Assembly (NCBI GenBank): GCA_030141605.1
Contig: JAQGDQ010000135.1
Location: 248,001-312,000, forward strand
Origin: Tubiluchus corallicola
Lineage: Eukaryota > Animalia > Priapulida
Length of the DNA: 64,000 nucleotides
Direction: 5' to 3'
The position numbers were made by a program, and so were the translations under genes. Below the pieces are notes generated by a model. The model did not search any database and was not told the origin of the DNA. It worked only from the letters and a program-made list of their open reading frames with translations. The first letter of the stretch is position 1, and each line of letters opens with the position of its first letter. Of this stretch, positions 15,900 to 61,700 are shown one piece after another.

Positions 15900-17150
15900 A
15901 ACATAATTAAAGGCGGACGTAATGATGTTTGAAACTAACTTAGAATTAATTAATGCTATTTTCCAAAGTGCGCCTAAGAAATAGCAAAATAAAAATCATG
16001 GTACGACAAAGAATGTAAAACTAGTCACAGAACTCCCTCTCAACTGGCCAGAACTCTTTCAAAAAATCCAAATAATTACGCAGTTCACTCTACGTATCAT
16101 AAACTAAGAAAAGCGCATAAAAAGAAGAAAAAACAAAGCAAGCTAAGAATAAACTTTTATCTATTCTGGAAAACACTAGTCACGGCGACCTAAAAATGTT
16201 ATGGGAGACTTTAGAAAAAATTGACTTTAGAAAAAATTGACAAATTCTATTACTGACATGACAAAATTTTACAAATATTTCAAGGAGCTGATGTTTAAAA
16301 ATGAAAAATATCAATTATTTCAAAACACTTCGCATGTTAGAATTATTGAAAATTATGTATCAGAAACTAATCCAGCATCCTTTACTAAATTAGATTATCG
16401 AATTTGCGAAAATGAAGTCTGAGAAGCAATAATTTTTTTAAAAAAATAACAAGGCACCAATCAAAGTTGGAATAATAAACGAGATGATCAATAGCGGAAT
16501 TACATTACTAACACCAACATTACCTTTGTATTTTAATTCAGCTTATTCTTTCAGAAAATTTCCAAAAGCCTTGAGTGATTGTCTAATCACACATATATTG
16601 AAGAAAGGAGACCCAACAGATCCTTCAACTATAGAGGTATCTCTATTTTACATCATTTGGACTTTTCTCACATTTGGGAACAGCAAGGGGTCGGTCAAAC
16701 TAAACTTTTTTATATGCTTTAAAAGAGAAATTACAAACAAACAAACAATAAAATTAACTGGAAGGAATGTGTTGCAAAAGAAACTTGCAAAACTGGGGAA
16801 ACTAATAAACTACGAAACTATACGAAATTTAAGCAAGAATCTTCTTTTTATACATAATCATGTGCTAAGATCGAACTTACATAGAAAAACGCCGACATTG
16901 TATAACGAAGGTAATCGCATATGAACATTGAAATGAAGGAAAAATTGAAGATGAAATTCATTTTGTACTTGTATGTAGAAATTACAATGACGTAAGGTCA
17001 AATTTATTCAGTTCTATTACGAAAACTTTCCCTGTTTTTATTAATCTACCTATGGACCAAAAGTTTATTTTGCTGTTAAGAGGTAGTGGTTTTGAAATGA
17101 CAAATTTAGTGTCAAAATTCATTAATGAGTGTTTTATGAAACGAAATTAA
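15900..17150 (+). mobile_element. Decayed, internally deleted LINE ORF2
   Basis: Fragments WYDKEC, FPKALSDCLITHILKKGDPTDPS-NYRGISL (start of RT), then a C-terminal EDEIHF-like motif. Confidence 0.7.
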
Positions 17151-17954: not shown

Positions 17955-25628
<7,674 letters not shown>

Positions 25629-28067: not shown

Positions 28068-31000
28068 TTAGCATTGATTCCGATCTGCCTCGCAGAGTTT
28101 GTTGAATTCACGTAACAGATTCCCCACTTCATCTGCATGGTGCTGGGTCCAGTAAATGTTGGCACGCATCATATTAATCGCTTTAGACAAAGAGTTTGCG
28201 TACGTCTCGGATGCTGGATGTTTGCCAAAAACTTCCTCCAGCTAAAAAAAATATAGGCTACATTAGGATGGTGACTTATTTGCAAGCAAAACTGGCATAG
28301 TTTGCCAAGGAAAATATAGATAAAATGTTATACAGTTTTTTATTTGGTTACGATTTTTATTTGCAACCTCGCGGCACACGCACGACTTTGCCAAAACAAT
28401 GACGCCATTTTTTCTCGTTGTAAAATAATACCCATAATAATTTTACATGTAGTAATATAAATCAACTGAGAAAACCTGGAAGAGCATGACACATGGTGAA
28501 AAGAAAAGAACGGAAAATAAAATAAAACGGAACACAATAAAACAAAAATAAAATAAACAAAAAAGTGAATATATAACGTCAATTAAAAAACAGAGAAAAA
28601 ACTAATGGAATGCTTCGATACAACTTTTGTGTACATACCTGTTCTTTTTCTGTATTTGTATTTACACCTGATATGAAAACAGGTAAAATTTTGTCCATTG
28701 CCCATGGATTCGAGCCAAATCTGAAAAATAAGGTATTATATGACACAAGGTATAAAAATGAAACAAAACCGAAACTTCCTACTTTATATTAAGAAAAGAA
28801 ATTAGATTTGCACAAAAGTTGCCTTAGTTTCTAAGAGGATGAAGGTTATAATCATATCGTTTTGATATTATCCTTAAGATTTATCATTATTACTCTTTTG
28901 TTATGTATAATTATCACTAAACACACTGTATGTCTATCATTTTTGTATTTCACTTAACATAAAAATATACAAAAGTTTTAATGTCTTACACGTACATTAA
29001 TATACTCATAGATTAATTAAATTTGACACTTTTTACCTTTCCTGAATGACGTCCCAGTTTTGCATGAGAAAATAATAAGAAATAGTTCGGCTCAGCATGC
29101 TGTAGTCCATAGAAACGATGGCTCTTGAGAAATCGTGGTTGTGCAGGATAGTTCCATTCAGAGCAATGTTAAGATACCTGTGAGAGTAAAACCCGTCATT
29201 TGCAATTATTTTCTTAAATTGAGTTTGCTTTAGTTAGATTAGTGGATTTGGGAAGATTTTAGCAGGCGAAAAATACCCGTATTGCTGCTAACCGAGAGCC
29301 AACTTTTTTGCGTCTATCATTTTGATGTTTCACTTAACATAAAAATGTACAGAAGTTTCTAATATGTTAAACATAGACTAATATCCTCATTATGATTTGA
29401 TATGATTTTACTACGTTCGTTGGTTAAAAGTTAATGTAAATTCAAAGATATGCTTAGGGAGTTAAAATGGTATTTTAATTGCGTTTAAGGAACTTCTCTT
29501 AAATTGAGTTCAATCGAAACTGATATAATTCGAAATACACTTAAATTTACTCTTAAGGTTATGATAGCATAAATATGTAATTACTTATTGTTACTGTCTG
29601 ATCATTCCTGTAAGTCTGACCGTCATCATTAAGCTCATGGAGCAATAAAACATTTGTGATTGTCAGCAAAAACTCCATAGTTATAGATCGTAGAAATGAT
29701 CACAGACATCAACAGAGTTGAAAATTAGATTAATTCTAACTCTAAAATTCCTTTAGGCCGTTTAAGATTGTTTAATGACCATTTCATTTTTGCAGTAATT
29801 AGCCAAAGCATGAAACGCACTCACGGGTCAGTTTAAGCTTAGCGCACACAGATGTCAAATTCGTTGTTTTCTGTTTCACGTATTTTTCTGTCCTTGTGCT
29901 TTAAGTGTTAGCAAAAGCACGAGCTGAAATAAGTTGTCCGCTTTTGCCCTGAGTTTTGAACTAAGAGATATGAAAAATGATTGTGACTTCAGGCCTCGAT
30001 AGACTAACCTTTGCAACAGCCACGGTTCATTACTTGCCGCTAAGGCGGCATAAGCGGTGTGTCTGTCACCAGCTACTATGGAGGCTTGAGCGTAATCGAA
30101 CAGAAATTGCCAGGCATCTTCTCCGCCTTCTCTAACACCTGCCCTGTAGTAGAGTTCTCTAAAGTTTGCTGAAATACTGTAAAAGAAGAAAAGTGTTTCA
30201 GAACGTATAGGTACGTTACATGCAAGGTCACTAAACCAATGAATGAGCGACTAAATGAATAGCTGGCTGGTTTGTTGGTTGCATGCTGATTTCCTAGTTG
30301 ACTGAGGCACTAACTAACTCACTGTCTTAATTAAATTATTTGAAGAAATAGATATAAATGACTGACAAATTGATTAACGAAACAGTAAAATGAGTAATGT
30401 ATGAATGAATGAATGAACGAACGAACGAATGAATGGATGAATGAACGAGTGAATGAATGAATCATTATAGTGAACAAGTAAAATATAGATCATAAATAAC
30501 TGAACAAGTAAACAAATGAATGAACAAGCCAGAAGCTGAACAAATAGACAAACAAGCAAACAGATAAAAGAACAAGAAAGAACAATGACTGAAGACAATT
30601 GCGGAAACACTTATATATCTACAACATTTATATATACACAATCATTTTATCATCGTGCAAATTCGCATTTACAGCAGAACATTCATTCGTTTCTACAGCT
30701 CCATTTAACACATAAAAGAGAAGTAACTGATTGACATACAGTTTATCAGGGTCTCTCTTCCATTGCTCAAATAGATTGTTTGCATATTGTATTGCACTTT
30801 TGTCGTTATACTGAATTGCAGCATTGAGGATGTCAATCCGCAGCTCTCTGAAAAACGATAAATAAGCACTTCAATCAAGATGTGCCAGTCGTAGAGTTCT
30901 TGTTTGTTCTAAAACACGAGTTAATTTGGCTCCATCGGATACATAAGAATGTCCTAAAATACTTTAGGTGACATAAAAGTTTAGCAAAGTAAAATGCACG

Positions 31001-32005
31001 AAGTAAAAGAAAACCTTTGAGCAATAATAAAACTCTGCGCACTGTCTTGTACAATTTATTTGTTTTTAAACCTGTTGCATTAATTTCAGTTAAAACTTCT
31101 CCATGAGTACAATGAGCAAATTTCTCCATTTTTAAGGTGTTTTCAGTTTAAACCTGAACTTTTTTTATTTTAAATCTTGTGTCTGCCTTTGCTTGTTAGC
31201 AGCAACGGAATACTTATGAAACTCACTTAAGTTCGTAGTCTCCAGTTTCTGTCCACTTAAGCTCTTCTACAAGAGGAGAAATCTTGTTTAACATGTATTT
31301 CTGAAACAAAAATGTATGAGCCTTTATTTGAGTTTTACAAATGTTTTTTTGGTAGAGATGTTTTATCTTCGATAGATCTTCATTTTACTGCAGACGTTTC
31401 ACTTTTAACAGTTAAGACTTGAGCCGGTATTGATTAAGTATAAGCAGATTATGACTTCCATTTAGGAAGCTGAAATGCTTGTACATTTAGTGTTTCAGAA
31501 CCCGATGAACTGTCAACAGAAGCCTAAAAACAAATAATCAAAAGCAAGAAATCAATGTTTTTTGTATTGTTGTCCAGGTTTTTCTTTGAGCTGCCATACT
31601 ATCTTTTTACTCACCCAGTAAATTAAGGACAACGTTCATTCAGAGAGAACATTTTTTGGCTAAGAGCGAGCTAGATAGGGAGGTGTGGACTTTAAAATTT
31701 CAATTATAACTTTTTGAATACTTACGGTTTGGCTTGCCTCTGCGAACATTGATTTTACTATTAATATAATAATTTAATAAAATCAGAATAATTACTTGCA
31801 CTTCACCATAATTCATTCCTTTTGACAACATGTGCATGATGAACTTCATGTGGTGTAGAAAAACCTTCCACGGTCCCATGTTGCGTTCTTTATTTAAGTA
31901 CTTACACAACTTGAATGGTATCATATAGTCCAACTTTGATGCCCTAATAATAATAATAATGATAATAATAATAATGATAATAATAATAATAATAAAAACA
32001 ACAAT

Positions 32006-32044
<39 letters not shown>

Positions 32045-32071
32045 AATAATGATAATAATAATAAAAATAAT

Positions 32072-32110
<39 letters not shown>

Positions 32111-35100
32111 AATAATGATAATAATAATAACAATAATAACAACAACAACAACAACAACAACAACAATAACAATAATAAAAAAATAATAAGAAGAAAAACA
32201 ACAACAATAACAAAACAACAACAACAACAACAACAACAACAAGCATAATAATCATAATAACAGCACAACTATACAGAATAAAAATGCACATTCACGATGG
32301 GTTATATAACCAGTTAAAAACATTTAACTGTTGTTAGCAATCCTGTTAATCAGCATGATAACTTCCGATTTTTTTCCTTCTGGTGATTGGTATTACACTG
32401 TTTTGGTGTGCAAAGAGAATAGCTATTTGTTATCAATTTATTAAATCGCAAAATTTTGATATTAAACAGTCTACAGTGTTTCAAGTACTGAGTTGGGCAT
32501 TCATTTGTCACAACTGCAATTGACATAATTATATTTTACTAGCTTCAAATCGATTAGTTTCAAGATAGAGTCCAGGAACTAAGATGTATATCATAACTTT
32601 GAGACAGTGATTGAATTTAATTGATCTAAGATTTAGTTTAGTTGGCTTGTAGCCTTGGCTCTTTGAAGCCTTGCCCTGGGTTGGGTGGCAGAGTGGTTTA
32701 GATTTCGCGCAATCTTATGTTCGAGATTAACAGCTGCCAATGCCAAGGCATATACCTTACATTTTATTCGTTATTTGTGTGTTGCGTCGCTACCTGCATT
32801 GTTGTAAATGAAAGCCACCAGTGATAATGTTGTCCGTTAAATGAGCGACGGTAATTAAATCTTGTCATTTTTGTCCTCACTTTGCAGAATAAATCGGCAC
32901 CAATGGCAGTTTTGTCTTAAGATCTGCATTTTAACCTGAATGTAAATTCAGATTCTTACCAGAACAGTTCATTGGTATTACCTGGCAAGCATGAAGGCAC
33001 TATTAAGAAGAGCTAGACGTGTCGATCCATCTATGAGTGTATGATCAGTCTGCAGAACTTTGGCAAGAGTATGCCAGTTGTCCTCGTAGTAATTGACTAG
33101 GTAGTACCCGTTTGATCCAAAATTTCCAACAATCCAGAAATCGTCTGATGTGGATACCTTGGTTTCTACCTTCACTTCCGTACCACCTAAGTGCAACAGA
33201 AGTCCAAGCACATTTATTGCAAGTAAAGGTTGTCTATCCACAATGTAACTGCAAGATTATTTATTATTACGTTAAAATAGCACAGATTTTTTATTGTTTT
33301 GTTTGTTTGTTTATTTGTTTAGCGGGTGTTCTTGTTTTGTGTGTCATACTTTGTCTTGTTATTTCTTTTCCTCCAATTTGCTTTCCACATTTTATCTTTC
33401 ATCACCATTTACTTCATGGTAATCCTTTATGTGCCTGCTTTTATTTCCTTTACCCTTCTTTTAACTTTATTGTCATTCATTTGTGGGTTTGCTTTTCTTT
33501 CCTTGCTTTTTTCGCTTGCATGTCTGTTCGATTTTTCACTAATGGAGGTGTCCATTATTTTAGCAATGTTTTTGTTGGAGAAGCCCAGAAAAACATGGGC
33601 TATATTGAAAACTAATGCCGTAAAGGACTTTTTCTCTGAACTCTAACCTTTATCATATTCGGTGCTTCAGATTCTATAGGTCTATGAAATTTGATAGCAT
33701 TCGATGCAATTTTCGCAAAATTAGAAAAAAAGTAATGTTTTTTCGCGATTTTGATGGATTGTTATTTTAAATCCATTACAATGCATCTGTTTATTCGATC
33801 ATTTTGTCCTTCATCAATATGTTGAAAGATTCTCTCTTTTTATTAAATAAAGATAATTATGACTGCGCACACTAGAATAATTTTGACAATCTTTAAGATT
33901 AAGAAATACAATAATAAATGAACACAAGACAAACTGGAAAATACTTACTTTGGTCCAACCATTTTATTTGAGAAGACTTGCCAAGCTCAGATGTGGTGAA
34001 AGTAAAGGGTATTTCCCATTTGTAGCTATAAAATGGAAAATGCAAAATTAAACAAATAACTGTTTTAAAGTGAGTATATTTTAAGTGAAAAAACACTGTT
34101 TCCTTCAATATTAGCATCTGATGAATGCCTTTACTTACTGACATTGCCAGTAGATATAACAAACAGTAAGTAAAATCAGTCTCTGCTGTTTTGTTTGCAT
34201 GTATTAAAGTTAAACAAAGCGAACGATGTAAACACAATTCTTAAAAAAACACATTTTGATATATTGCTTAAATGATATATTTTAGTTGTTAGATGCATTT
34301 TGGTGCATTTTGTTACGAGCATTTTAACATTATCAAGTGATTACATTTTTGTATAACTAACCCCACTTGCAGTTTTTGAAATTATTTGTAATTGTTGTGA
34401 ATACACTGTTACCAATGTAAATTTATTATTGCTTCCAGAATTTAATCGCAAGTTCATGTTTGTTTAATATTACTAACTTGTAAGGACTTGTGGAATAGTC
34501 CGGTTCATCCTCCGGATTCAAAAGAAAATATTCTTGAGACAGTATCAAATCGCCGTTTGATGAATTGGTCACAGTTACCACGGGGTATCCCATCTGCTTT
34601 AACCAAGTATTCATAATATTTCCTACTGAACTTGGTAAACCATTGTCAACCGACTGCAAATAAAAGTTTAAAAGAAAAAACAATAAAAAGGCAAACTTTT
34701 CGGTTATGAAACTGAAACTTAAACATTCATACTTAAAAGGAAAAGTGTAAATGAAAGAATGAAATGACGAGTAAATAACAAGTGGATGAAAAAAATGAAG
34801 AAATGAGCAAACAAACAAACGAACAAACAAACAAATGAATAAATCTGTAAATTAATAAACAGATAAATAAATAAAGACGTCAGCGAATAATTAAATGAGT
34901 GAAAATGCATTGAATGAATGAGTTTATAAATAAATGAGGAAATGAATAAAAGCATGAGAGAACAAACAAAAAAACAAACAAATAAATAAATTAATTAAAC
35001 AAAAATTCAATGAATAATTTAGTGAGCGAAAAATTCATGTAGAATTGAAAGAATGAGTTTGTAAATAAATGAGGATATGAATGTAAACGAGGGAATGAAT

Positions 35101-38100
35101 GAATGAACGAACGAATGAGAGAAAAGTACGAAGGGAAACAGGAACAATGTGAAGGAATGAAATGAACATGAGAAGAAGGCACTGATAAAGGAATATTTAA
35201 TGCTTATTGGATGTATACCTCTTCAAGTGTGTTCCAAAGATCTTCCATTTTTGCATTACGGAACTGGTATTTCTTTATGTAATTCTGCAATTAAGAAAAA
35301 GTAAGCAACTATGATTTAGTTACTACTGCATCTTGTATTAGCAATATACTAGTTAACATTGTGATTTTTAGTATTTCACTACATTATTCAAGTAGCAATT
35401 ATATTAACATTTTATCTATTTGATACCTGCATCCCGTTTTTAAAGTTTTCTGCTCCCATGAAACTTGTCAACATCCTCAAAACATGGCTTCCCTAAAATA
35501 TCAAGTGACCACATGGAAAACATAATAAACATATACATAAAAACGTATAAGTGCTATAAGTGCAAAAAAGAAAGAAGTGTCGACAAATGAGGTATGCGAT
35601 TTTTTACCTTAGCATAACATTTTAAAAAGTGGGATATTAAATTTACGTATAAATTATATTAATAAAAAATTTTAAATATAGGATCGCATAAATTTAGTTC
35701 ATACAACTTTGAAAACTTGTGTTTAATTTATTTTCCACTAAAGAAATAATAAAGTCAGAATACTGTTTACAAATGCCATCTGTGTACTATATACATTCCA
35801 CATGCTTTTACAAATCAGTCAAATTTAGTCAGTTAACAACTTCATGTGATTGTAAAAACTACACTTCGTATGCTTATAATGAAAGCTTTTATGAACCAAA
35901 GACACCAAAATTTTAATCCAAGTTTTTGTAATGCTGCACAAAAACTATATTTATGTCTTTTACATTGACTGAGACCAAAGAAGATGCATATAGTCTATTC
36001 GTAATTAGTTACATCAGGGTTGGTTCCACTTGACAAATGGTTTATGCACCAAAGGAAGACTTGGCTTGTTCAATAGTAAGGCTTTCAAACTATAGACTCA
36101 GTCTAATGGCGGTTCAGTAAATATTATATATATATACATCTTTAAATTGCGTGTTGGACGCTTAGAAGTTGACCCATACTGGATATTTCGCATGTTATGA
36201 ACTTGAGGACTTGTCGATAAAGCATCTTTAGCGACTTAAATTAAACACCTAAATTTTTCTCTTTGAATGCATTGAACTGTGTGTTATGGACGCGTTGAGC
36301 GCATTGAATTGTGTATTTGGAACTTTAAATAAAGTGTATATGGCAATTCCTAAACTTGAAATTTCTAAATACGGCAATTTCTTAACGAAATATCTGGAAG
36401 CTAAGATTTTAAAATTGTCCTGGAGCGCCTCGAAAGCGCCTCTATTTTCGCCTCTAACAACTTGGTTTTGGCGTTATAAGTGCCCTAAATTAAGGCACCT
36501 CTAAATAATAGTTTTAGACACAAGAGAAACATGCAAGAACGTTTAATCTCTAAAACTTGCTCACCATTTCAGCACTTAAGAAGTCTAATTTTAAGGTTGG
36601 TTCATTAAGGCTTTCGTTATAACAATGCATGCAAACTTATTAAACAAATAACATCAGAGCAAACAATGCAGGATAATTTTATTTGGTTTAACTAAATTCT
36701 TCGTGCATAATCACCTTAATGTAGGCTATTTTGTCAAAATACTGTTCGATGGCAGACGAACTGTCGAAATTGAAATAGATGGGGTGAGATACTAACAATG
36801 CATCTTGATCTTGGACTAGGTTGCTCGATCTCCATGTATGCACTAATTGTTTATCAAACTAACAACAAAGACAAAATGCTCATGCGTTAAACTAGTCTTT
36901 CACAAAAAATATTAAATTGACAAAAAGAGAAAAAATAATTGGCTAAAGTTTACAATTCCCCACATACAAGAAATTAGTCGGTGAAGCGTATTAGGATTAT
37001 AGTTGGGATTAGGGTTAGGGTTAGGTTAGGGTTAAGGTATTTAAATTGTGTGGGGAACTGTAAATTCCTTCCTAGTAATTATGTCTGATAGCGAACGGCA
37101 ATTAAATGGTGATTCTCAAACGTAGTATACCGTGTGGTACGCCCATCGCTAGTACAAAATACAGCAATTTCTCTAACAAAGCGTATTAGGTTTGAGAAAT
37201 ACTTCTACCGATTCTAATTTTCTACTACGCGTATATTTAACCGTGAAGTATGTTGGGCTGTTCAAAAGCTTGTACAGCCTGTAAACCACGGGATATCACA
37301 TGCAATAATTGTTAAAGGTAAACTAGCTGTTGTTGTTTAAGCAGATGGCGACACTGGCACTGGCAACACTTTGCGCAAAACCAACGGCGCCATGCATTTA
37401 TAAGAACAAGGAGGGGACATAAGGTTGTACAACTAATATGTGTAAGGTGTTAGCATTTTGCAAAATAAGTGGTAATTGAGATTTTTCATGATGCACATGC
37501 TGAACTTGTTAACAACATCTCTAGGGTACAAAGCTACAAAAATCATCGCATCAAAGAATGCTCGTCATTCATTAAATGTGCACTTGACCACTGGTCACAC
37601 CTTCACGTAGGCAACAGTGTCGAAGTATTGCACGATTTCATCGGCGTGGCTGATCGGTACAGAGATGGGGTGAGAGGAGAGGAGCGCGTCGTCCTTTTCT
37701 ACGAAGACTGTAGCAAGAATTGACTCAGATACAGCTCGATCGAACTATAGTTAATGGCAAACACATTTATACTGCAATGTTTTTATTCTACAATACTATA
37801 TACATACACTACATAAGTGCATATACCAATTATACTAGATAACCCTAACTTTTAGCATAAACGGCATTAGTCACATTAAAATAAATTTGTATTTTAAAAG
37901 ATTATAGAATTCTACTATACTGTTATGACTATATTCCCTTGCTCATGTCTACAAACACAAGGGTATTCATAAGCCACCTTAACAAAATGAACCGGTGTTG
38001 TTAAAGCACCGTACGATGGAGGCCGTTAAACCTGTCCGTAAATGGTAAGTTTTGAAACTGCTTGCCTTTCAGCAGTGACAGCTTGCAGTTAAAATTTTAT

Positions 38101-41100
38101 TAAAAACATAATATAAAAAAATATATATCAAACTATATTTTCTTCCAATTTGTTCTCCACCGCTGCACAACTGTTCCATCATTATAATGAATATGCCATC
38201 AATATAATAATGAAAAAACTGGGAACACCAGTCTGATGAAAAACAGCATTTGGCTATTAAAGAAAAAAATTCAATAATATTGTTGCGGGGCTGAGCTTCG
38301 CTCTGTTTTGCGTTCAAACTTTTGACTCTCTCAATGACACAGACATGCGGCCTGTATGTTATTTCAAGTCTTGTTAAAGTAAAACACCCTCATAAATTTA
38401 AAATGTACTAATCTTACTGGAATGGAATACATAAATCCCTCGTTCTGATTGGTTGTAAATTCGAATACTCACCTGTTTTCACCTTCAAGTATATATAAAT
38501 ATAAATGCCGCATCCTGTATCTTTGAATTCGGTGGTTGCTGGTGCTTGCAACGCCAAACAGGACAAGCCTGCACCTGTTGTCCTAGGTGTTTCGGCGTAA
38601 TGCGTGGGAGTGGTAGGCCCTCAAGAGTAGACTGGTTTTCTGTATTTTTCATGTTTAGCCAGCTGTATGTTTCAGTTATGAGACGAGAACTTTATTTAAC
38701 AGTACATATCTAGTTTTTACAAAATTAGCAGGTTAGCTAAGTTTTTGGTCGGGCCTTGTACCGTTCTTTCTAAGCTGGTGAATGTGTCCCATGCTGGCTT
38801 GTTAGTTCTGTTTCAGGATGTCGATTTCGAACTCTCGCCCACCGATAGCACTGGTTCAAACCGTCAAGGGGTGATTGCTAAAACCTTGGCGGCGAGAACC
38901 CGACGGCGGAACAATATACTAGCTTAAAGTATTCTTCCTCGGTTTCAAATGAATGTCCTAAAAGACTTGAATTGAAAATTGTACACATGAACTTGCTATG
39001 CAGCAGTTTCACAAAAGCTGACAGCGCGCAGTTTTGCAGGTAGTACATCAAACTTTATAATTTCAAGAAAAACCAGAGGTCATATGGAAAACTGAGTGAG
39101 TTTCAGTAAAAGAGAAGCGTGTGACTAACTGAACATCAGAACTCGGCTCCGTTTATTTGGTCTGATTGACTAGATACGTATTCAGTTCCAGTAAGGCTCA
39201 CTGTGATGTCACACCGACAATAGATTTATAGTTCACGTATGAGCAAAAACACGCTAGGGACAATTTAAACATCTGAAATCTACGGGGTGCAATGAACCGT
39301 TATTTTCTCATCAATTTTTACAGAGACAATGAACCAAGACAAGCACTGAGAAAATGTCTGTGATGCTATGGTTACGGCTAAACTTACGGCTAAAATGCTG
39401 TAATCTGCAGCAACTAGACAGTCTGCTTGAAGATAGGTCATCGTGTACTTCGTGCTTTTATATGCAAAGAGAGTAATCTGCTGTGCTTTTGGTCTGACCA
39501 TTGCTGCTAAGAAACTGCTTTTTAAGGCGAATTGATGAAGTACTTACTTCATTAATTAGTTGAGTAAAATTACGAAAACAAAAAATCACCTGTACCGTGT
39601 AATTACTCTTACTATAGTGCAAAAGCACAGAAATCATTACTTTGCAGCTACGTCACGGGCTTCATCTCATTAAGTGATGTTTATGTAGGTATACGATGTG
39701 CAAATTACCGATGACCTACCACTTTCCAGTCTGGCCGAAGATTGTCCAAACACATGTACATGCCTAGCGTTGCAAATGCCTCGTTAAGCCAGAGGTCTGA
39801 CCACCATTCCATGGTCACTATATTGCCAAACCACTACAAAATAACATCATCAAAATTCGATTAGCGAAACCCTGTTTGTCAGCACTTCTATAAAGTGTTG
39901 ATGGAGTATAGAAATAGCCGCCCCTCTAACGCAATTGGGTTATTCTGCGTGGCTTCGCAAAGTAATGCATACTGGTTAATTAATAGAATCCCTTACGTAC
40001 CGTATTATTACATACACATAATAGAAAAATGCATAAAACAGTCGTAAAGTTTATCCACTAATTTGATTTTCAATTTTCTTTTTACATAATCGACTAACGA
40101 CGTTTATGTTGTGGTAATTCTTACTCAGTAATTGAGAATGAGTTCTCATTTGATGTTTTGCGTGTTTTCTCTGCTTGCTGTTATGCTGAATGATGCCTGA
40201 ATCTAAACTACTGCATGGCCAAATACGGAAAAGTGTGTAGTGCTTAGGCGTAAATGAAGATCTTTGCAGTAGACTTGTGAAGCTCAGTTTGATGCGACTA
40301 AAACTCTTACAAATCGTAGACTGCAACTATATTCTCATTTGGTTCCTGTTGTAACTGCTATTAATATTTAATACATTTTTAAAAATAACGAAGGACTTTA
40401 GAAACACCCCGTATTTTAGCAGCAATGGAGGCCTACAGTCAAGCCTGTTAAATAAAATTATTTAAGAAATCTGTCCCCTACATAATACTGGATGAATAAG
40501 TAGGGAAATACACGTTCAACTTTAGCGAATATTTTGAAACAAACTAGGACATAAGTAAATGTTAAGAGAACAAGTATAATTGTGTGACTTATCTAGAAAT
40601 TATAATACTCTAAAAAACTAAAAAACGCCCCTGTTTAGCATACTGATTTTATGCTTTCTCTGATATAATGATTTCTGTCAAGACAGTCAGAAGCGGCAAA
40701 CTAACGCAAAGGTGGACCTTGAACAGTTGAACTAGTTATTACTGACTCATTTTTGATTAAGCGTTAAAGCGAAAAAATTGCAACATGGTTTACCGTGTGC
40801 GCTATTTCGTGAGACATGACTTGTGCTATATAGTATTTATGTTTGTTGGAAGATATTTGTCCATCAATCAGCAAGGCGCTGGTTTCGTAGGTAACCAAAC
40901 CCCAGTTCTCCATGGCTTCCGCCCCCATATCCGGTATGGCTATGTGGTCTGCAATCATGAATGTGTATACAGAGCTTCATTATTTATTCTTAATGATACG
41001 TAATACATGTTTCTACACACAAACATGTTCTTCTTTTGCTTCTTTTGACAGGTATTTAATATACAATAGAGTTTGGTTACCCAAAAATTGTGCTTTAGAG

Positions 41101-44100
41101 TTAAAGCTGTAAAGCAAATTTATGACAAATTTAAAGTAATTATTTCAGTAATTATTGTATTAATTGCTACTGAAACCTGTTACAGAGTAGCTAAGATCAT
41201 TACCAGTTACTAACAGTAGGGTATTCAGCCATACTAAAAGATTTTGTCATCACTGAACGTACAAAATTGAAATTAGTTTACAGCGTTTTTCTCAAACGTT
41301 TCAGATTATTTTAGCGATTTAAACAAAAATATGTTAAATATTGATGAATTGGATACGAAAATAAGGCGTAAGAAGTTCAAAAGCACGTATGATGTCAAAT
41401 TTTAAAACAAAACAGCTGCAGTACTATGCCACTGATGCTTAGCTTTATAAGGGTTGGCTGTAATGGCCGACTTACCTGCCTTGGGAATTTGCTCAGGCAT
41501 ATCAAAAAATTCTGTAAAGTAGTTATAGATCTCTGGTGCAATCTTCTTGGCGTATTCAGTTTGATCTAGCCACTCCGAGGGAGCCCAAATGTTTATCTAA
41601 AATGCAGTAATGAAAGGCCTTGATTCGGCAAACCGAGCCAGACATATTGAATGGTATAGGATGATATTGGTATTGATATAGACTGAAACTGAACAAGATA
41701 GGGTCAAGGAATAAACCGTGACCAGTTTCGATTGCAGTAGCAGCATATAAAATGAAAGGAATTGTATATATTGAAATGTATACACAAATGAAAGAATGTA
41801 GTATGTACAGTAGTATATACAAATGAAATACATATTTAATGGTATAGGCTGGTCTTGACATCACATATTGAATGGGACACGAGATTAGTTGACCTCTGAC
41901 CCAAGGTTACTGGTCAATATGCGACCAACACTACATTTTACGTTTCCCATTGGAATATATTCTCGCCACTGAAGGCATCTTCAGCTCTAGAACAGGAGAA
42001 TCTAAAATATAGTGTTGATCATTAATTCTGCTAATTCCACTATGAGGAGTGCTACTGTTAGAAAAAGTGACCAAGTTCCGATTTCAAATAAGCAAATAGA
42101 ATTCCTAGATAATGAAACATGGTGAATTCAATGTAGCAAATATTACGAACTTTTAGACAACCGTTTATTGTCATTTCAATGTCAAATAATGGAGTGACAG
42201 ATTTCGTTAACCTGAAGTACATTTCCTAGGCTGAAGTCATCATTAAGATGCTTTATGCATACATTGTTTAGCAACTTCGAAAGCATACAAGAGGGTTTTG
42301 AAACTCACAGTATGGTCAATCAGAGGTGGGAAAACAACTCACAAGTATTCTTACCTTTGATTACCATATCATAAAACAAAGTTATCGAAATCTTTACTTT
42401 CTTTATGGTGTCAGAACCAATAATCAACTAGTTTCTTAATCTTAACAACCATTGATTTATTATCTTTCCCAGAAATTTGTACCACGAATGATTATTATTC
42501 ACTGTATTATTCACATATTTTTGCATTAATTAAAACAAGTAATAACAAGTACAATATTATTAATTAACAAGTACGTACCTGTAAATTATTGGGTCCGTTC
42601 GTTTCTACATGTTTGAAGTCATTGATGCTGACTGCAAATAGGTACAGAGACATGACTGGCGTCGTGTCGAAAATGTCCAAGATCCAACCATCTTCCATAG
42701 TAGCAGAATTGATCACTGGCATATTGGACAAACTGATGTACTCTGAAGAACACACAGTTGTACATTACTGACCAACCAGCCAAGTAGATTACTCATGGCT
42801 TGACTGACTGAGTGAATGAGCGACTAACTGGTTGCCTGACTTACTGGCTGATTAGGTGTTTAGTGACTTGTTCCCTTATAACTAATAAGCAGCTTGGGTG
42901 ATTGACTGCTTTGGTTACTGAATGAGAAAACGTTTATATGTTGTTGAATAATACACTCAAATCAACACTATTGCAGAACAAGCATTTACTACAATGATGG
43001 TGATGATGATGAAGGCTATGACTGTGATGGTCTGGCCACAAACCATCTCTGTAGTGTAATTTCTTGTAAGTTTTACCTTTTTTAAGTGCAGAACTGCCAC
43101 CTGTCACAAAACATCAATGGGTAAACAATTAATGATATTAATTTTGATCATGTATGTATATAAATTTAGGTGTGGGTAATTACAAATTGCAGTGTGTTGG
43201 AGCCCCATCTGTTAGCAGAAAAAGTTGTTTTAGTGTTGAGAGATATCGTAATCGAAATGGATATTGAAGTTGCATCACTTTTGTTTAGTCTTTCATTTAT
43301 CTTTTTTCGGATCAGGATTCTGATTGGACTACGACTGGCTGCCTTTTTTAATCAGAAATACTGCCCAAATACCTGCACTGAATGACCTGTGATGTGACCT
43401 CATTAGTCATTCTAACGTCTTGATCTTGTTCTGTATAGACGTATAAGTTTGTTCAGGGGCGTTGGCTTGGCAGACATCTTGAAATCGGCGAGAAGTAATA
43501 TTTTTGCTAAAGTTTAGTATAAACGAACCAAAGTAGTTCACACCATGTACTCATCGTGGTTCTAGTGAGCTATATGCTGTTTTAATTGTTGTGTTTGGGA
43601 CGAGTTGGAGTCCACTAAATTCAGATGACGGATGGTGACTGATGGAGGCCTACTTACGAGCGTCGAGTCTGTCCTGTGATTGGCTGGTCAACATACGTGA
43701 ATAGATGTTTTATGGTTGAGAAAGGGAGAACAAATCATTCTACACTAAAGGCAAAATGATTTCAGGATTTGTGGAGTCAAAGGCTGTGGCCTGACCGGAA
43801 CGTAGCTATTTTCCCATGATAATCTTTTTAATATAAAGCAGTAAGCTAGCTGGATATTTGTATACCTTCCCCCAGCAAGGTATTAATATTAGTTGTTAAT
43901 TTTTACGAGCTACATGGTAGTAGTAAGCAGACCAAAACTGTTGATGCTCATGCAGATTATATTTCTTTACCATATGAAACACAACGAAACCCTATTGATT
44001 TTCTTCTCGCCAACTCTCCTTATAACTGCTGATATTCCACTCACCTGGTTGATGTTCTATCTTAATGTTAAAAGTGGCTTTGTAACGCGGCTCGTCAAAG

Positions 44101-47017
44101 CAGGGGAACACAGTTCTTCCTGCCACGGCTTCCAATTGTGTGATGGCTAGATAGCTGTAGAAAAACAAGACAGAAAAAATTGTAAAATCAGACCCTTAAC
44201 TATGTTCCCTAATTTTACTTATATATATCTTATCCTATCAAAAACTTTTCTGTAAATTAACTTGAGTTTTTTCTGCAGTATTTTTTCGATTGTCATAGTT
44301 CTGAAGTGTTAAATTTTTGCAATATAAATATATAAACATTAAAATTCGCCAGAAAAAGGTAAGTTATTTAATTTAAAAGTTTCTTTTATTTAATAATAAC
44401 TATGAATTCTTTGTGTAATTATAATAATGCGTTAAAAAACTTCAATGTCTGTCAAGGTTATATGCTATATAGGCCTTTAACGAATGCGCGGTGTTTATAT
44501 CAGGAAAAACACAGTTAGTTTAAGGTCAGTGCTGCAGGGAACCAGTTCTGAGCTGCATTATGCTGATAACACTTACCACATGGATGACTGGTGTGTAGTA
44601 TCAATTTTCTAAGAACTGCAAAAACGGCATTCAGAATGTCGCAGATACACAAATCGTAAACTGCAGAAAAACTCAAATTGTTATCCAGATGCTGGGAACG
44701 TTGTAAAACGGCTGCTATCAGTAATTGGCAGCAGATTACAAAGTTGTGCAAAAGAAGCTAGAGTGCATTTGAAGCCGCGAAATTTTGTTATAATAAACGA
44801 AAGTGAGCTAACGTCGACAGGACGACGTAAAATCAATCATTTTGTTTGCAGCACATTTCCGTTATTTGCTGACACAGCAGTGTCACGTAATGTGCTAAAC
44901 TGATAAACTAACAGAAGCGAGAAAAAAAGGTGAAAGCAAGTAACTATAGCGAGGCAAATGTGTGGTATTGGCGTTAAAAATCTAATTCCGAATTCATTTT
45001 AAACCTTCAAAAGATTGATTCATTTTGAAGGGTGTTTCAGAAGTTTCTCACTAATTTAATTTCCATTTTCTTTTCCAGCTAATAGACCAAAGGAGCTCAT
45101 TCGTGGTAAACTGTTATTCAGTATTCACAAATTTTTTGAGTCTAAATTTGTGTTGAGATTTTCTTCTGATGACTCCAGAGTAAAACTGTAAAATATATTG
45201 CTGTACATACAAAATTGCTATAGTCGACTTATGAAGCCAAGTTTTATGAATTTACATCTCCGCTTTTGATTCAGCATGGCAGTAGATAAAGATGATGCAG
45301 AACTTCAGATTAAAAAAATTCTCAATTGTTGAGTAAAATGAACGCCGTTAATCGATTAGCTGAGAAGAAATTTGGGATAAAGTTTACAATTCCCCGCACT
45401 CAAGAAATTAGTTCGTGAAACGGATTAGGGTTAGTGTTAGGGTTAGGGTTTGCGTTAGGGTTAAGGTTGGGGTATTTAAACTGTATGGGGAATTGTAATC
45501 TCCTTCCGAAATTTGAAAATCAAGTCAGTGAGTGATTTCTGAAACACCATGTAACGATTATTGCCCATGACATTATGATTAGTATCTGACAGATAAAGTC
45601 GTTTGTATACTTGACGATGTACATAATTGTAAGCTAGATAGTAGGCCTATACTGTCAGGTGTTAAGATTATTACTCATAATTACAACGACACTCAAAGTG
45701 TCAAAGAGCCTTGGGAGAACACCCATGATTGGTGCTAGATGAATAATTGGTTTTCACTTGTTTTGCAAGTAACCCTTAGAGACAAAATGGCAGAAAAGAC
45801 TTAATGGATCTCGATGCAACCCACGGTAGCCACAAGAGAAATTTGTGAAGAAGAGTGTTTGAAAAAAGCCTCACCTGTTGCCAAAATGTTTACGATCACT
45901 ACTACTATCATTCTTAATATTACTATTTTTCTTACTACAACAACACATAGAAATAGCAGTAGTCATATAGATCTCATTGTTAACATCGAGTACTATAAAG
46001 AAAGAAAAAAGGTAATACTAAAGGCGGTAGCTAGAACAGTTCGCTGTCTGTGGTCTGTGGCATCTAATGAGGTTTCAGTTCAGCTGATATTATGAGCATG
46101 CAATGCAAAAAGCAATACCAAAGGCGCTAGAAAAAAATTTGTTGTCTCTGGCATCTCAGACCTCAGTTTGGTTGATATTAGAGCATGTAAAGCTACAATG
46201 AAAACAATTTTAGTAGTTTCTTAAGCCTATGTGCATCACTTCAATAGTCTTGTGTTACCTTCGGTAAATCTGTCCATTCTTTGTCTAGTCACAATTGGTA
46301 TAACAATCAAAATAATCCAAAGATTTACCTTTTTGTTCCGTCGGCTTTTTGGTATGAGCTTCTGTACAACCCAAACACGTCATCTAAAACGGCTGCCCCA
46401 AACTTCTGAAAGGTGATCAAGTACTCGACTCCTGCGTCTAACTTTTTGCCCATCTTCAGTACCACATAATGATTATTGGTGATGTAATCAGTACTATCAA
46501 TGCCGACTGTCTCATTGGGATTATTAGCAAGGGCCACTAAAATGTCTTCAGGGCTGATTTCAAGTCTGGCAGCATGAAGGATCACGTGACTTGTGGCTTT
46601 TACACATTTCACCAATATAATCACAGAACCATTAAATGTAAATGCTGACAAGTCCACCCTGAGTGTTAAATTGTAAACAGAGGGAACGATATCCCCTGGC
46701 AGTTGAGGAGCAGCCCATGGCAGGGAGGGGTCGATCGTGGTGCCGACTGATGTCGTGACCACATCACTAAGTTCCTCTTTTTCTTTTTCCTGCGTGTAAT
46801 GTTTCCTTGTTAGAGACCAAGTGATTAATCCACAAATGAGCAACAGCAGTAGCACTAGTAGCACCAGCAGAATGATCTTCTTGTTGGACACGTACTTCCC
46901 GCGGCGGCGCTCGTTGCGGAGGGAGATGTACGCCTCTTTGGCATTTTGGGCCGTCATCTGTTCGTCTTCGGCCTCCGATCCGAGGCCAGTTTCAGTCAGG
47001 TCGTACTTTTCCGACAT
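28068..47017 (-). CDS. M1-family zinc aminopeptidase (aminopeptidase N-like), type II membrane protein, 993 aa
   Basis: Exons: 47017-46329, 44154-44045, 42742-42579, 41596-41476, 40948-40794, 39833-39720, [37744-37601 or 36858-36715], 35492-35427, 35284-35219, 34653-34478, 34025-33949, 33186-32982, 31943-31796, 31300-31227, 30847-30740, 30176-30009, 29177-29037, 28720-28639, 28241-28068. Total 2982 nt with all phases consistent. N-terminal TM anchor, GLYRSSY, FPCFDEP, SNMP, (E)AMENWGL, HEIAH-x18-E, Y-x-KG, W-x-x-QMGYP. Confidence 0.93.
31945..32241. repeat. Compound (AAT)n/(AAC)n microsatellite
   Basis: Directly visible; abuts the exon 13 acceptor; explains several poly-I/V/L/C ORFs. Confidence 0.95.
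36715..36858 (-). CDS. Aminopeptidase alternative exon 7b (catalytic Tyr segment)
   Basis: ttgttag|[48 protein letters not shown]|gtgatt; 144 nt, phase 0-0. Confidence 0.88.
36944..37068. mobile_element. Hairpin element family 2, copy 2 (internal TTAGGG repeats)
   Basis: TAAAGTTTACAATTCCCCACA ...(TTAGGG)n... TGTGGGGAACTGTAAATTCC. Confidence 0.75.
37601..37744 (-). CDS. Aminopeptidase alternative exon 7a (catalytic Tyr segment)
   Basis: ctatag|[48 protein letters not shown]|gtgtga; 144 nt, phase 0-0. Confidence 0.88.
39720..39833 (-). CDS. Aminopeptidase exon 6 (third zinc ligand Glu)
   Basis: [38 protein letters not shown], 114 nt, phase 0-0. Confidence 0.95.
40794..40948 (-). CDS. Aminopeptidase exon 5 (EAMEN and HEIAH motifs)
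   Basis: [21 protein letters not shown]...VMSHEIAHT flanked by AG and GT. Confidence 0.95.
45378..45503. mobile_element. Hairpin element family 2, copy 3 (internal TTAGGG repeats)
   Basis: TAAAGTTTACAATTCCCC ...(TTAGGG)n... GGGGAATTGTAATCTCC. Confidence 0.75.
46329..47017 (-). CDS. Aminopeptidase first coding exon (cytoplasmic tail, TM helix, start of domain I)
   Basis: ORF MSEKYDL...[20 protein letters not shown]...[15 protein letters not shown]...GLYRSSY; donor at 46328; an upstream acceptor at 47171-47172 implies a non-coding 5' exon. Confidence 0.92.
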
Positions 47018-58745: not shown

Positions 58746-61700
58746 TCAAGGATAGTTGCATCGACATGACGGAGGATTACAGCAAGGCTGTGCAGCCTCC
58801 TGCTCAGCATCCTCATTTATTATAGGTGGAAGTGCTATCACACTGTTCTTGTGTTCTTTGATAAGTTCACTAATTTTCTCAAGCGTCTTTAAATGGGTAC
58901 TTGCATCCAAAGGAAACTTCTCGCCTGGGTCGACATCAATGTTATATATGACAGGCGGCTTATGCTCTGTTACACAGTCCCCTTCACAAGCGAAACACAA
59001 CGATGCTGTTTTGGGTTGAGGCACACCCTCGATGCATATGCTGGAGTTCAGATATGTGTCATACGTAGCAAAATCTTGAGTGTAAAAATGCACTTTAAAA
59101 CTGCCGTAGCGCACGGCCATTATGATGTCATGGCAATAAAAGAAAATAATCTCGTGGGGTGAAGTTTTGTTGTTGCTGAAAAGCACGCTGGTCAAACTCT
59201 TTCCTAAAAAGATATTATTAAGTAAATCATAATGAAAAATATTGCAATTCAATTGATCAGCATTGCTAGCCCTTATTTTAGATATAAGATATGTTAACTA
59301 ATGTGCAAAATGAACTATGATTGATTTTGCATAGCTTTAATAGCGACACTTACTAAAACTATATCGTCGATAAAATTATAATACAGGTATGTATGATGAA
59401 ACAATGCAAAAAGGCCGTGAACTGTTTTGCTACACTTCTTGATGTAGCCCAGCAACAGTGTGTAAATGCCAATCATGCATTCAAACGGATGCCTACTATT
59501 AGAATTAACAAGTTTCTGGTGGAACCAGAAACTAACTAGTAAACTATGTATAACTCGAATATCTCGGGACCGGAAAATTCGTTTGAGTAATGCGAGGGAA
59601 AGAGTTAGACAATGTTCGTAAGAAAACAAGACTGAGTCACTCATCAGCGTCGGACAATACACTGCAGCCCGTATTATTATCACTAGCATATTATTATTAT
59701 TATTATCATAATAATAGCATTTCTGCTGAAACTAGCAGTTAAAATCTTAATGTGGTACACATTTTCGCATAGGATTTCTCGCTTGCGAGGTTATTCAACA
59801 TAAGCAGCCTAATTTCAGTTACATTCTTATAAATTGTACCGAGAATTCGGTTTGCGTAAAGCGATAATTCGAGTTACAGATTTCAGAGTTACAGAGTTAT
59901 GCGATGTTTGGTAAATGAAAGGGAAAATCTATTCCACGAGATCTGTTTGAGATAAGCAAGAGTTCAAGTTATAACGGGTAGAGTTTCATGTAGTTTACTG
60001 TATTTACAAAGGCTGGTTCCTTAAGATGAGGCCCCAAAATGGCAAGTGTCTTGGTCATGAACACATATAAATAATTCTTCTTCAATGACAAAAATAGCCG
60101 AAGACATTTTGGCAGATGAAATTGCTTATAGGTCGTGTTAATTTGGCCCCACAGCTATCACTCTCACCCTAAGTGAAATTCAGCACCTCGTTACAAGCTG
60201 CCATTTTGGTAATAAGGCCTGACAAAAAATTTTCCTTACAGTGTTTCTTTGACTGTTATGATGATAAAAAACAATAAACTGTATGCAGAAATTAAAAAAA
60301 CTGCTATTACTGCTGCTATTTTGCTAGCTGTTTCCAGATAAAAATAACATGTCAGTTTAAAACTATATACTTGTAAGATTATAATAAAAATAACCATGTT
60401 TCAACCATTTCAAACAAAAGGTAATTACATGCACAAGTCGCATGACTGTTGTACGCAAGTAGCGAAACTGTGAAAAGGCTTATTAATTCAAGACTTTTGG
60501 GCCATTGGTACATATGGGAAAATACTGAATAAAGGTCAGACAATCAATCCTCACACAATTTGTGACACTGTTCCATGAAATACTGTAACTGATTTTGAAA
60601 CAAAATTTATACCAATATGACATCAATAGTAACATTTTTGCTTACCATCTAAGGTTATGTTTTGCGGTAGATCTGCACCAGCTAGTTCAAGCAAAGTTGG
60701 GAATATGTCCATGGTTGTAAGCACAGTACTAGAGACTTGTCTGGGTGCAATTTTAGACGGCCACCATGCCACGGCTGGCACACGAACACCGCCTTCCCAA
60801 GTTTGGTGCTTTGCACCCTGAAATGTGACAACAGAAACTTGACTATGCAAACAAATGAAAATGAGTAAGCACAGAAAAACGTTTTAGGTGAGTAGAACGA
60901 ACCTAACAATTTTTATGTTCTTGTTATGCAAACCGAAATTGTAGATTCAGAACCAAAATTATACAAAGACATATTGTATCTATTATTATATTTAATATAT
61001 TATAATTATTCTGCTTAGAAACACAAGATGAGCAGTTAAAAACAACATAGAATGTCTAATCAGCCAGAATCATAAATTTGTAAAAATAATCTCCCTAATC
61101 TCCCTCAAGAATAATTTTTATCATATGCAATGCGTTCTATACAAATAAATTAGATTCTAGTAACAAATTCTATTTATTCTTAGCTTAATCATCATTTTTA
61201 ATACTCTGCATTTGCATTAACAAGTGACAGTTCTAGTTTAAATTTTCCACCAAGACAACTCTTGCTTTTTTGAATGGCTATTATTGTGCTACAGTTATTA
61301 AAAATCCATAATGCATGGTTTCCATTCTTATCTTATTTTTTCCTTTAATTCAATTTGAGTTGTACCACACAGTACCACCTATTTTCTCTTTATCTTTCAC
61401 TGTCAATTACATTACCAATTTATAAAAAAACAAATTTGTTTAGTTCACACTGACATGCAGTACAACTTCAATTTGGTTACCCAAGTAGAGTTCACTGGTC
61501 TGATCCATGATTCAGGCTTAATTTTTCAAAATTTGCTATTTTTTTATTAAATTATTGAAAATGCTACAGCATACAGTATGTCCAACAATGCAAACATTTA
61601 TTTGCAATTTTTTTCCCGTTTAGGATGCCGAAGTGCCATAGTACCATGCATTTCCTCCATATTTTTCATAGGCATTTTTGTGGTTTAACTGTACAAGAGT

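What the first reader, a model, noticed from the sequence alone, without database searches (positions are those of the whole stretch)
36715..37744. Tandem duplicated, probably mutually exclusive exons swap the active-site Tyr segment of an M1 aminopeptidase
Seen: between exon 6 (..NEAFA..) and exon 8 (GSHVLRML) lie two paralogous exons, 7a (37744-37601) and 7b (36858-36715). Each is exactly 144 nt, phase 0-0, stop-free and flanked by AG/GT. They share only 19/48 residues, and these are the family-conserved ones (DALLxSHPI, IxQYFD, AYxK), so both appear to be under purifying selection. Known: this segment supplies the transition-state Tyr (human APN Tyr477, ERAP1 Tyr438) and the nearby pocket-lining Phe. 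Including both would duplicate a core part of the catalytic domain, and skipping both would remove the Tyr. Inference: one gene makes two ectopeptidase isoforms with different substrate-pocket surfaces by exon choice. I am not aware of this being described for APN-like genes, but cannot search to confirm.
Basis: partly seen in the sequence, partly recalled or inferred. Interest (0 to 1): 0.9.

Follow-up and report, generated by a model that had tools for sequence, protein, structure and literature searches.

The report
Twin active-site exons in aminopeptidase gene
An animal gene for a cell-surface peptide-trimming enzyme carries two old, well-kept versions of the exon that lines its substrate pocket, a pair also present in a penis worm, and it likely uses one at a time to make two enzymes predicted to prefer different substrates.

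Summary
Confirmed. A 993-aa aminopeptidase-N-like M1 gene (19 coding exons) holds two 144-nt, phase 0-0 copies of exon 7 (19/48 identical). A spliced contig joins 7a directly to exon 8, skipping 7b. No transcript with 7b was seen, but exons 5 and 6 were not covered either. The Priapulus caudatus orthologue carries the same pair in the same order. 7b is 69% identical to its counterpart, against 55% for the downstream protein, and a duplication private to this genome is rejected (p 0.0004). So both copies are old and under selection. The exon encodes the helix-4a substrate sensor and the catalytic Tyr. Tyr and Phe are kept in both copies, while the S1 residue matching IRAP Glu541 (V/A versus E/N) and the residue matching ERAP1 Asp435 (T/V versus K/R) differ by copy. 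Best reading: mutually exclusive splicing giving two enzymes (0.75); different specificity is inferred, not shown. Against: the Priapulus RefSeq model includes both copies. The mechanism is a known kind, but I found no paper on it for an M1 aminopeptidase. This scan earlier noted a different exon pair in puromycin-sensitive aminopeptidase, on other DNA.

The parts
28068..47017 (-). Aminopeptidase-N-like M1 ectopeptidase gene: 19 coding exons plus one alternative, 993 aa, N-terminal hydrophobic anchor (about residues 48-67)
   Evidence: gene model; Pfam Peptidase_M1_N and Peptidase_M1 on single exons; 10 of 10 listed X2 joints match model introns in length
40794..40948 (-). Exon 5: EAMEN (variant of the GAMEN motif) and HEIAH zinc motif
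39720..39833 (-). Exon 6: third zinc ligand (NEAFA); ends in phase 0
37601..37744 (-). Exon 7a: 144 nt, 48 aa (residues 452-499); seen spliced to exon 8
   Evidence: counterpart is P0005 residues 12-59 (26/48)
37631..37633 (-). 7a codon 38, Val (Ala in Priapulus): position of ERAP1 Arg430, IRAP Glu541, APN Ser469 in the S1 pocket
37616..37618 (-). 7a codon 43, Thr (Val in Priapulus): position of ERAP1 Asp435
37607..37609 (-). 7a codon 46: transition-state Tyr (ERAP1 Tyr438, APN Tyr477)
36859..37600 (-). 742-nt intron between the copies; holds a high-copy repeat at about 36940-37070
36715..36858 (-). Exon 7b: 144 nt, 48 aa; intact and conserved; no transcript seen
   Evidence: counterpart is P0005 residues 60-107 (33/48)
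36745..36747 (-). 7b codon 38, Glu (Asn in Priapulus): position of IRAP Glu541
36730..36732 (-). 7b codon 43, Lys (Arg in Priapulus): position of ERAP1 Asp435
36721..36723 (-). 7b codon 46: transition-state Tyr
35427..35492 (-). Exon 8 (starts GSHVLRML); phase-0 acceptor shared by 7a and 7b

Best explanation
The gene carries two tandem copies of its 144-nt exon 7 that arose once, before this animal's lineage split from Priapulus, and it likely splices them in one at a time, which would give two membrane aminopeptidases with the same zinc site and catalytic Tyr but a different helix-4a substrate-sensing segment, predicted to shift substrate preference. Shown: the pair, its age and conservation, and a transcript that joins 7a to exon 8. 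Inferred from conservation: that 7b is spliced in as a full substitute. Inferred from homology: form a has a small apolar S1 residue (Val/Ala) and a neutral residue at the ERAP1 Asp435 position, so it would favour neutral or hydrophobic N-terminal residues. Form b has a polar or acidic S1 residue (Glu/Asn) and a basic residue there (Lys/Arg), so it would tolerate polar or basic N-termini better and prefer acidic residues further along the peptide. Exclusivity is most likely set by splicing factors (inferred by elimination), because frame, intron length and RNA pairing do not enforce it.
For: (1) X2 contig joint 35491/37600 skips 2108 nt with canonical ends; its loose end is exon 8. (2) P0005, Priapulus caudatus XP_014663500.1, carries both copies in the same order. 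Identities are a-a' 26/48 and b-b' 33/48, against 248/454 for exons 8-19; 5 sites group a with a' and b with b', and 0 group a with b against a' with b'. (3) Exon tree of 22 rows: the four copies form one clade (99/99), b+b' 99/99, and 7a+7b is rejected (AU p 0.0004). All four are 48 aa; 41 lophotrochozoan orthologue segments are 44-46 aa. (4) b-b' identity 0.69 lies within the range of single-copy exon-7 orthologues at the same distance (mean 0.64, 5-95% 0.56-0.73, 210 pairs). (5) Each copy keeps both ends of the exon in both species, as a full substitute would. (6) The 4 listed X2 differences in 7a are all synonymous (4 of 6 differences were listed). (7) Positions 34-41 match ERAP1 helix 4a, described as a substrate sensor, and 43 matches Asp435, which contacts P2' and P4' (PMC8421391 passages). 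Position 38 is an S1 residue (PMC6222927 Table 5). IRAP E541R shifted selectivity towards ERAP1 (review PMC3342382).
Against: No transcript with 7b was seen. The only RNA evidence is one contig from one run that is about 6% divergent in exons (66/1121 nt) and whose RNA status is a tool guess. The Priapulus RefSeq model joins a and b in one protein. The a-a' pairing is weaker: 7a has 27/48 identity to b' and 26/48 to a'; a+a' is not a clade in the best tree, though not rejected (p 0.155); a'+b' is not rejected either (p 0.173); the bootstrap had not settled. Glu at position 38 is not conserved (Asn in Priapulus), and that position varies freely among orthologues (8 residue types in 41), so an IRAP-like basic preference is weak. 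One of 3 X1 differences in 7b changes a residue (Ser35 to Tyr). Only one other species with the pair was found.
Confidence: 0.75

Rival explanations
1. 7b is an optional cassette added after 7a, so the forms are a and a+b. The longer form has a 48-residue insertion, folds with one copy looped out, or acts as a regulatory or inactive variant.
For: The Priapulus RefSeq protein has a and b in tandem. Double inclusion is in frame (1041 aa, no stop). No steric, frame or RNA-pairing block was found.
Against: That model starts abruptly 11 residues before copy a and lacks everything upstream, so it looks like a partial prediction (inference). Both copies keep the whole motif set, including the Tyr, in both species, which a looped-out insert would not need. 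The tandem form scores lower against a single-exon orthologue (622 against 646 and 639 bits).
Confidence: 0.11
2. Both copies are used alternately, but the enzymes cut the same substrates; the swap tunes domain closure, stability or tissue expression instead.
For: Catalytic Tyr and pocket Phe are unchanged. Many b-specific conserved residues (K3, Q4, W9, R10, Q16, D17, F29, F31) lie upstream of helix 4a, partly in the stretch that in ERAP1 is helix 4 facing domain IV (mapping approximate because of a 3-residue insertion). In human events most changes are conservative (PMC9741552 abstract).
Against: Two substrate-contact positions (38, 43) differ in character between copies in both species. Lys or Arg at position 43 occurs in 0 of 41 single-copy orthologues.
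Confidence: 0.25
3. 7b is a relic that is no longer spliced in this species and is decaying.
For: No 7b transcript. 7b has a longer end branch than b' (0.39 against 0). One residue-changing difference between window and X1.
Against: 33/48 identity, no gaps, intact splice sites and no stop across about 0.93 substitutions per site of gene divergence. Loss would have to be very recent.
Confidence: 0.07
4. The pair is an assembly or annotation artefact, or a piece of a second gene.
For: None beyond the lack of a record spanning both exons.
Against: Run X1 holds both exons with their own flanking introns; Priapulus has the same pair in the same order; no other duplicated exon lies in the window.
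Confidence: 0.01

Closest known systems
Tandem duplicated exon substitutions (homologous mutually exclusive exons), e.g. human KHK and PKM, fly CG42249 (PMC8373072, PMC9741552, PMC7954323)
   Same: Two homologous internal exons of equal length and phase, old, key catalytic residue kept, variable residues near the functional site. In KHK the swapped region lies beside the ATP site with the catalytic Arg conserved.
   Different: Different enzyme family. ANPEP, ENPEP, ERAP1, ERAP2, LNPEP, TRHDE, NPEPPS, LVRN and RNPEP are absent from the human catalogue, where PKM and KHK were found. Psa and 'aminopeptidase' are absent from the fly list, where Dscam1 was found (CG-named genes not checked). Use of the second copy is not yet shown here.
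Specificity divergence among ERAP1, ERAP2 and IRAP (S1 residues Arg430, Gln447, Glu541; PMC6222927, PMC3342382)
   Same: The same S1 position varies while Phe and Tyr stay fixed.
   Different: There it is done by whole-gene paralogues; here it would be done by exon choice within one gene. The residues are Val/Ala versus Glu/Asn.
Lophotrochozoan APN-like / glutamyl-aminopeptidase-like orthologue group (Lingula P0003, Capitella P0014, Lineus P0017)
   Same: Same orthologue group by quick tree (SH-aLRT 99); 37-39% identity to its closest members.
   Different: Their protein models have one 44-46-aa exon-7 segment and GAMEN. Lineus RefSeq isoforms X1 and X2 instead differ in a 47-residue block of domain IV that matches exon 17 here. 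Their genomic DNA was not checked for hidden copies.
Either/or exon pair in animal puromycin-sensitive aminopeptidase
   Same: An M1 aminopeptidase with duplicated alternative exons at the active site.
   Different: Here the spacer is 742 nt.

Membership tests
Tandem-duplicated mutually exclusive exons | Two adjacent homologous exons of compatible length and phase with their own splice sites | tested here: met
Tandem-duplicated mutually exclusive exons | Transcript with the first copy alone | tested here: met
   7a-exon 8 joint skipping 7b, one contig in one run; the exon 6-7a joint itself was not covered
Tandem-duplicated mutually exclusive exons | Transcript with the second copy alone | tested here: inconclusive
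   no X2 contig on 7b, but none on exons 5-6 either; no 7b-bearing protein found
Tandem-duplicated mutually exclusive exons | Joint inclusion and joint skipping rare | tested here: inconclusive
   no such joint among those listed (7 joints not shown); the Priapulus prediction includes both
Tandem-duplicated mutually exclusive exons | Both copies conserved across species | tested here: met
   (one other species)
Steric or frame-enforced exclusivity | Very short spacer, distant branch point, or frame shift on double inclusion | tested here: not met
   spacer 742 nt; several AGs within 60 nt of the 7b acceptor; double inclusion and double skipping are in frame
RNA-pairing (docking/selector) exclusivity | Competing intronic base-pairings above chance and conserved | tested here: inconclusive
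   top stem score 40 against 33-40 in 25 shuffles; 10 stems scoring 30 or more against 3-17; conservation could not be tested
M1 zinc aminopeptidases | HEXXH-18X-E zinc motif | tested here: met
   HEIAH and NEAFA
M1 zinc aminopeptidases | GXMEN exopeptidase motif | tested here: inconclusive
   XAMEN core present, but Glu replaces Gly (EAMEN); 0 of 139 motif matches in fetched homologues have Glu (135 Gly, 4 Ala)
M1 zinc aminopeptidases | Peptidase_M1_N, Peptidase_M1 and ERAP1_C domains | tested here: met
   Pfam hits on window exons and on P0005; end-to-end match to Lingula APN
M1 zinc aminopeptidases | Aminopeptidase activity | not testable with these tools
   needs an assay

The most novel reading that the evidence does not exclude
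One ectopeptidase gene switches its substrate specificity by swapping the whole helix-4a substrate sensor through exon choice, a natural version of the IRAP Glu541 swap kept since an early priapulid-lineage ancestor; and M1 aminopeptidases have independently evolved either/or exons at several pocket-shaping places (this exon, the Lineus domain-IV exon, the reported PSA pair).
Probability: 0.4. Interest if true: 0.62.

Novelty: new member of a known kind. Interest (0 to 1): 0.45.

Why it matters
Known M1 aminopeptidases diversify their substrate pockets by gene duplication. A gene that does so by exon choice would supply two natural enzymes identical except for helix 4, helix 4a and the start of helix 5. 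That is a clean test of how this segment sets specificity and couples domain closure to catalysis, a question studied in human ERAP1 and IRAP. It also points to a probable error in the Priapulus RefSeq model and suggests that such exon pairs are missed in invertebrate M1 genes.

Tried and rejected
No whole genome was held, so paralogues in this organism were not searched. The run search listed no holder on record as RNA; X2 came in by species label. The lack of X2 cover on 7b is no evidence, since exons 5-6 also lack cover. Contig depths were not used. The 7a contig ends 2 nt inside the exon's 5' end, so it gives no exon 6 joint. A search for longer proteins holding 7b found none among 2 candidates, a weak search. 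The metagenome scan with 7b gave 2 loci; L001 is a chance match antisense to an unrelated ORF; L002 gave the same match and was not opened. P0004 is a repeat protein and a false hit. RNA stems did not exceed shuffles. The hairpin in the 7a-7b intron belongs to a high-copy repeat, so it is unlikely to be the ancient switch. 7a and 7b donors and pyrimidine tracts are not clearly weaker than those of the other exons, judged by eye. No structure was predicted: the only single-frame protein with these exons (P0005) lacks the zinc helix. Paper searches for a description of this pair or of either/or exons in an M1 aminopeptidase showed none, judged from listings. The supplements of PMC7954323 were uninformative because the positive control CG42249 was absent too; its event list may bear on novelty. 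Zervoudi 2011 and the Drosophila either/or exon catalogue of 2013 were not held. A search for the laeverin motif variant found nothing. The careful gene tree did not finish; the quick tree is quoted, and 6 of 32 outgroup candidates were dropped for lack of an anchor.

Full report
Observation. They share 19/48 residues and 73/144 nt, and 9 of the 19 shared residues use different codons, so the duplication is old. The similarity is far beyond chance: score 92 against a maximum of 29 in 100,000 shuffles.

The gene. I built a model of 19 coding exons from 47017 to 28068 on the minus strand. With either copy it gives 993 residues without internal stops (two earlier attempts had wrong boundaries). 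It has an N-terminal hydrophobic anchor, HEIAH and NEAFA zinc ligands and M1 domains. It aligns end to end with Lingula aminopeptidase N at 36.7%. Exon 7 is residues 452-499. No third copy and no other duplicated exon was found in the window. Including both copies or neither keeps the frame, so nonsense-mediated decay cannot enforce a choice.

Transcript evidence. Two public runs were offered. X1 behaves as DNA and holds both exons with their flanks; it has no difference in 7a and three in 7b, two synonymous and one Ser to Tyr. X2 is marked as a guess at RNA, but all 10 of its listed joints skip exactly the length of a model intron (15 joints listed, 7 more not shown). One of them joins 7a to exon 8 across 2108 nt, skipping 7b, and the loose end is exon 8. 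So constitutive inclusion of both copies is excluded for this transcript. The 4 listed differences in 7a are synonymous (4 of 6). No X2 contig lies on 7b, but none lies on exons 5 or 6 either, so this says nothing. X2 is about 6% divergent in exons: one contig, one run.

Conservation. A search of 1.84 billion representatives with 7a gave 6 hits. One, P0005, has two copies in tandem and is Priapulus caudatus XP_014663500.1. On the region downstream of exon 7, the window gene and P0005 form a clade (SH-aLRT 100, path 0.93) inside an orthologue group with lophotrochozoan genes (99; quick tree, 28 rows). The animal is therefore probably a priapulid relative; this is inference from one gene. Identities are a-a' 26/48, b-b' 33/48, a-b' 27/48, b-a' 19/48, and 248/454 for exons 8-19. 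In an exon tree with 18 of the 41 orthologue segments, the four copies group together (99/99), b with b' (99/99), and a window-specific duplication is rejected (p 0.0004). The grouping a+a' is not in the best tree but is not rejected (p 0.155), a'+b' is not rejected either (p 0.173), and the bootstrap had not settled. All four copies are 48 aa, against 44-46 in 41 orthologues (41 of 43 extracted), which fits one duplication after the split from lophotrochozoans. At this distance single-copy exon-7 orthologues average 0.64 identity (5-95% 0.56-0.73); b-b' is 0.69 and a-a' 0.54. 7b is thus kept like a working exon.

What the exon encodes. Ungapped alignment puts exon positions 18-47 on ERAP1 410-439: position 46 is Tyr438, 41 is Phe433, 38 is Arg430, 43 is Asp435, and 34-41 is helix 4a. 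PMC8421391 (passages read) describes residues 426-433 as a substrate sensor that couples domain closure to placement of Tyr438, and Asp435 as contacting P2' and P4' of a peptide mimic. PMC6222927 (passages and Table 5) lists APN S469/F472/Y477, ERAP1 R430/F433/Y438 and IRAP E541/F544/Y549 as S1 residues. The review PMC3342382 (passage) reports that IRAP E541R gave an ERAP1-like profile; the primary paper was not held. Tyr and Phe are the same in all four copies. Position 38 is Val/Ala in a and Glu/Asn in b; position 43 is Thr/Val in a and Lys/Arg in b. Among 41 single-copy orthologues none has Glu or Asn at 38 and none has Lys or Arg at 43. Caution: Glu itself is not conserved, and position 38 is naturally variable.

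How it likely works. Shown: two conserved full copies, and a transcript with a alone. Inferred: transcripts with b alone (about 0.8), rare joint inclusion, and two enzymes with different preferences (about 0.65 if both are made). The spacer is 742 nt with no long AG-free zone, and no RNA pairing exceeds shuffles, so regulation by splicing factors, perhaps by tissue or stage, is the default reading.

Rivals. The Priapulus model joins both copies, which keeps an a+b form open (0.11). That model is truncated upstream, and full conservation of both copies fits substitution better. A decaying relic (0.07) needs very recent loss. An artefact is nearly excluded by X1 and Priapulus.

Comparison and novelty. 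Homologous either/or exons near functional sites are a described class (PMC9741552: abstract, passages and supplement searched; PMC8373072: supplement searched; PMC7954323: passages). No M1 aminopeptidase named in my searches is in the human catalogue, and Psa is not in the fly list. Six paper searches (listings only) showed no description of such a pair in an M1 aminopeptidase; subscription journals were not searchable. This scan earlier noted a different pair in puromycin-sensitive aminopeptidase (unchecked AI notes), and nothing on this sequence or genome. The Lineus orthologue has annotated isoforms that differ in a domain-IV block.

Verdict. Real, old and probably functional. A new member of a known kind, with a precise and testable prediction. 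Interest 0.45.

Noticed in passing
window 40919-40905 (-): The exopeptidase motif reads EAMEN, not GAMEN; 0 of 139 motif matches in fetched homologues have Glu there. The Gly is listed in the S1 and S1' subsites of APN. One base separates it from Gly; X1 covers the place with 1 difference in 747 nt at an unlisted position. NEAFA for NEGFA is also rare (1 of 139).
   Followed up: partly
P0017 and P0129, residues 891-937 (Lineus longissimus RefSeq X2 and X1): The orthologous gene has two annotated isoforms of equal length that differ at 28 positions in one 47-residue block of domain IV, matching exon 17 here: probably an independent either/or exon pair. The window has one copy of that exon.
   Followed up: partly
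P0005 (Priapulus caudatus XP_014663500.1): The RefSeq model lacks the N-terminal half and joins both copies; probably a mis-prediction of the either/or pair.
   Followed up: partly
window about 36940-37070, similar stretch near 45380-45500: High-copy repeat with 16-nt inverted arms around a short tandem run, about 80 nt upstream of the 7b acceptor; depth in X1 up to about 2600. Probably a small transposon.
   Followed up: no
window about 4500-25600 (-): Several small exons with Kazal protease-inhibitor domains (3 of 3 Kazal-like exons tested hit Pfam) and repeated cysteine-rich exons, next to the aminopeptidase; looks like a tandem gene array.
   Followed up: no
window about 58750-62430 (-): Arylsulfatase gene exons upstream of the aminopeptidase.
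   Followed up: no
window about 16400-17150 (+) and 18900-21700 (-): Broken reading frames that look like reverse-transcriptase pieces of a LINE element (judged by eye, label recalled).
   Followed up: no
runs X1 and X2: X2 differs from the window by about 6% in exons, X1 by about 1-2% including introns, although they share a species label: a distant population or a cryptic species.
   Followed up: no
P0010 (Tegillarca) and P0006 (unnamed): P0010 repeats a multi-exon block that includes exon 7 almost identically, probably an assembly duplicate; P0006 has three short exon-7-like repeats.
   Followed up: no
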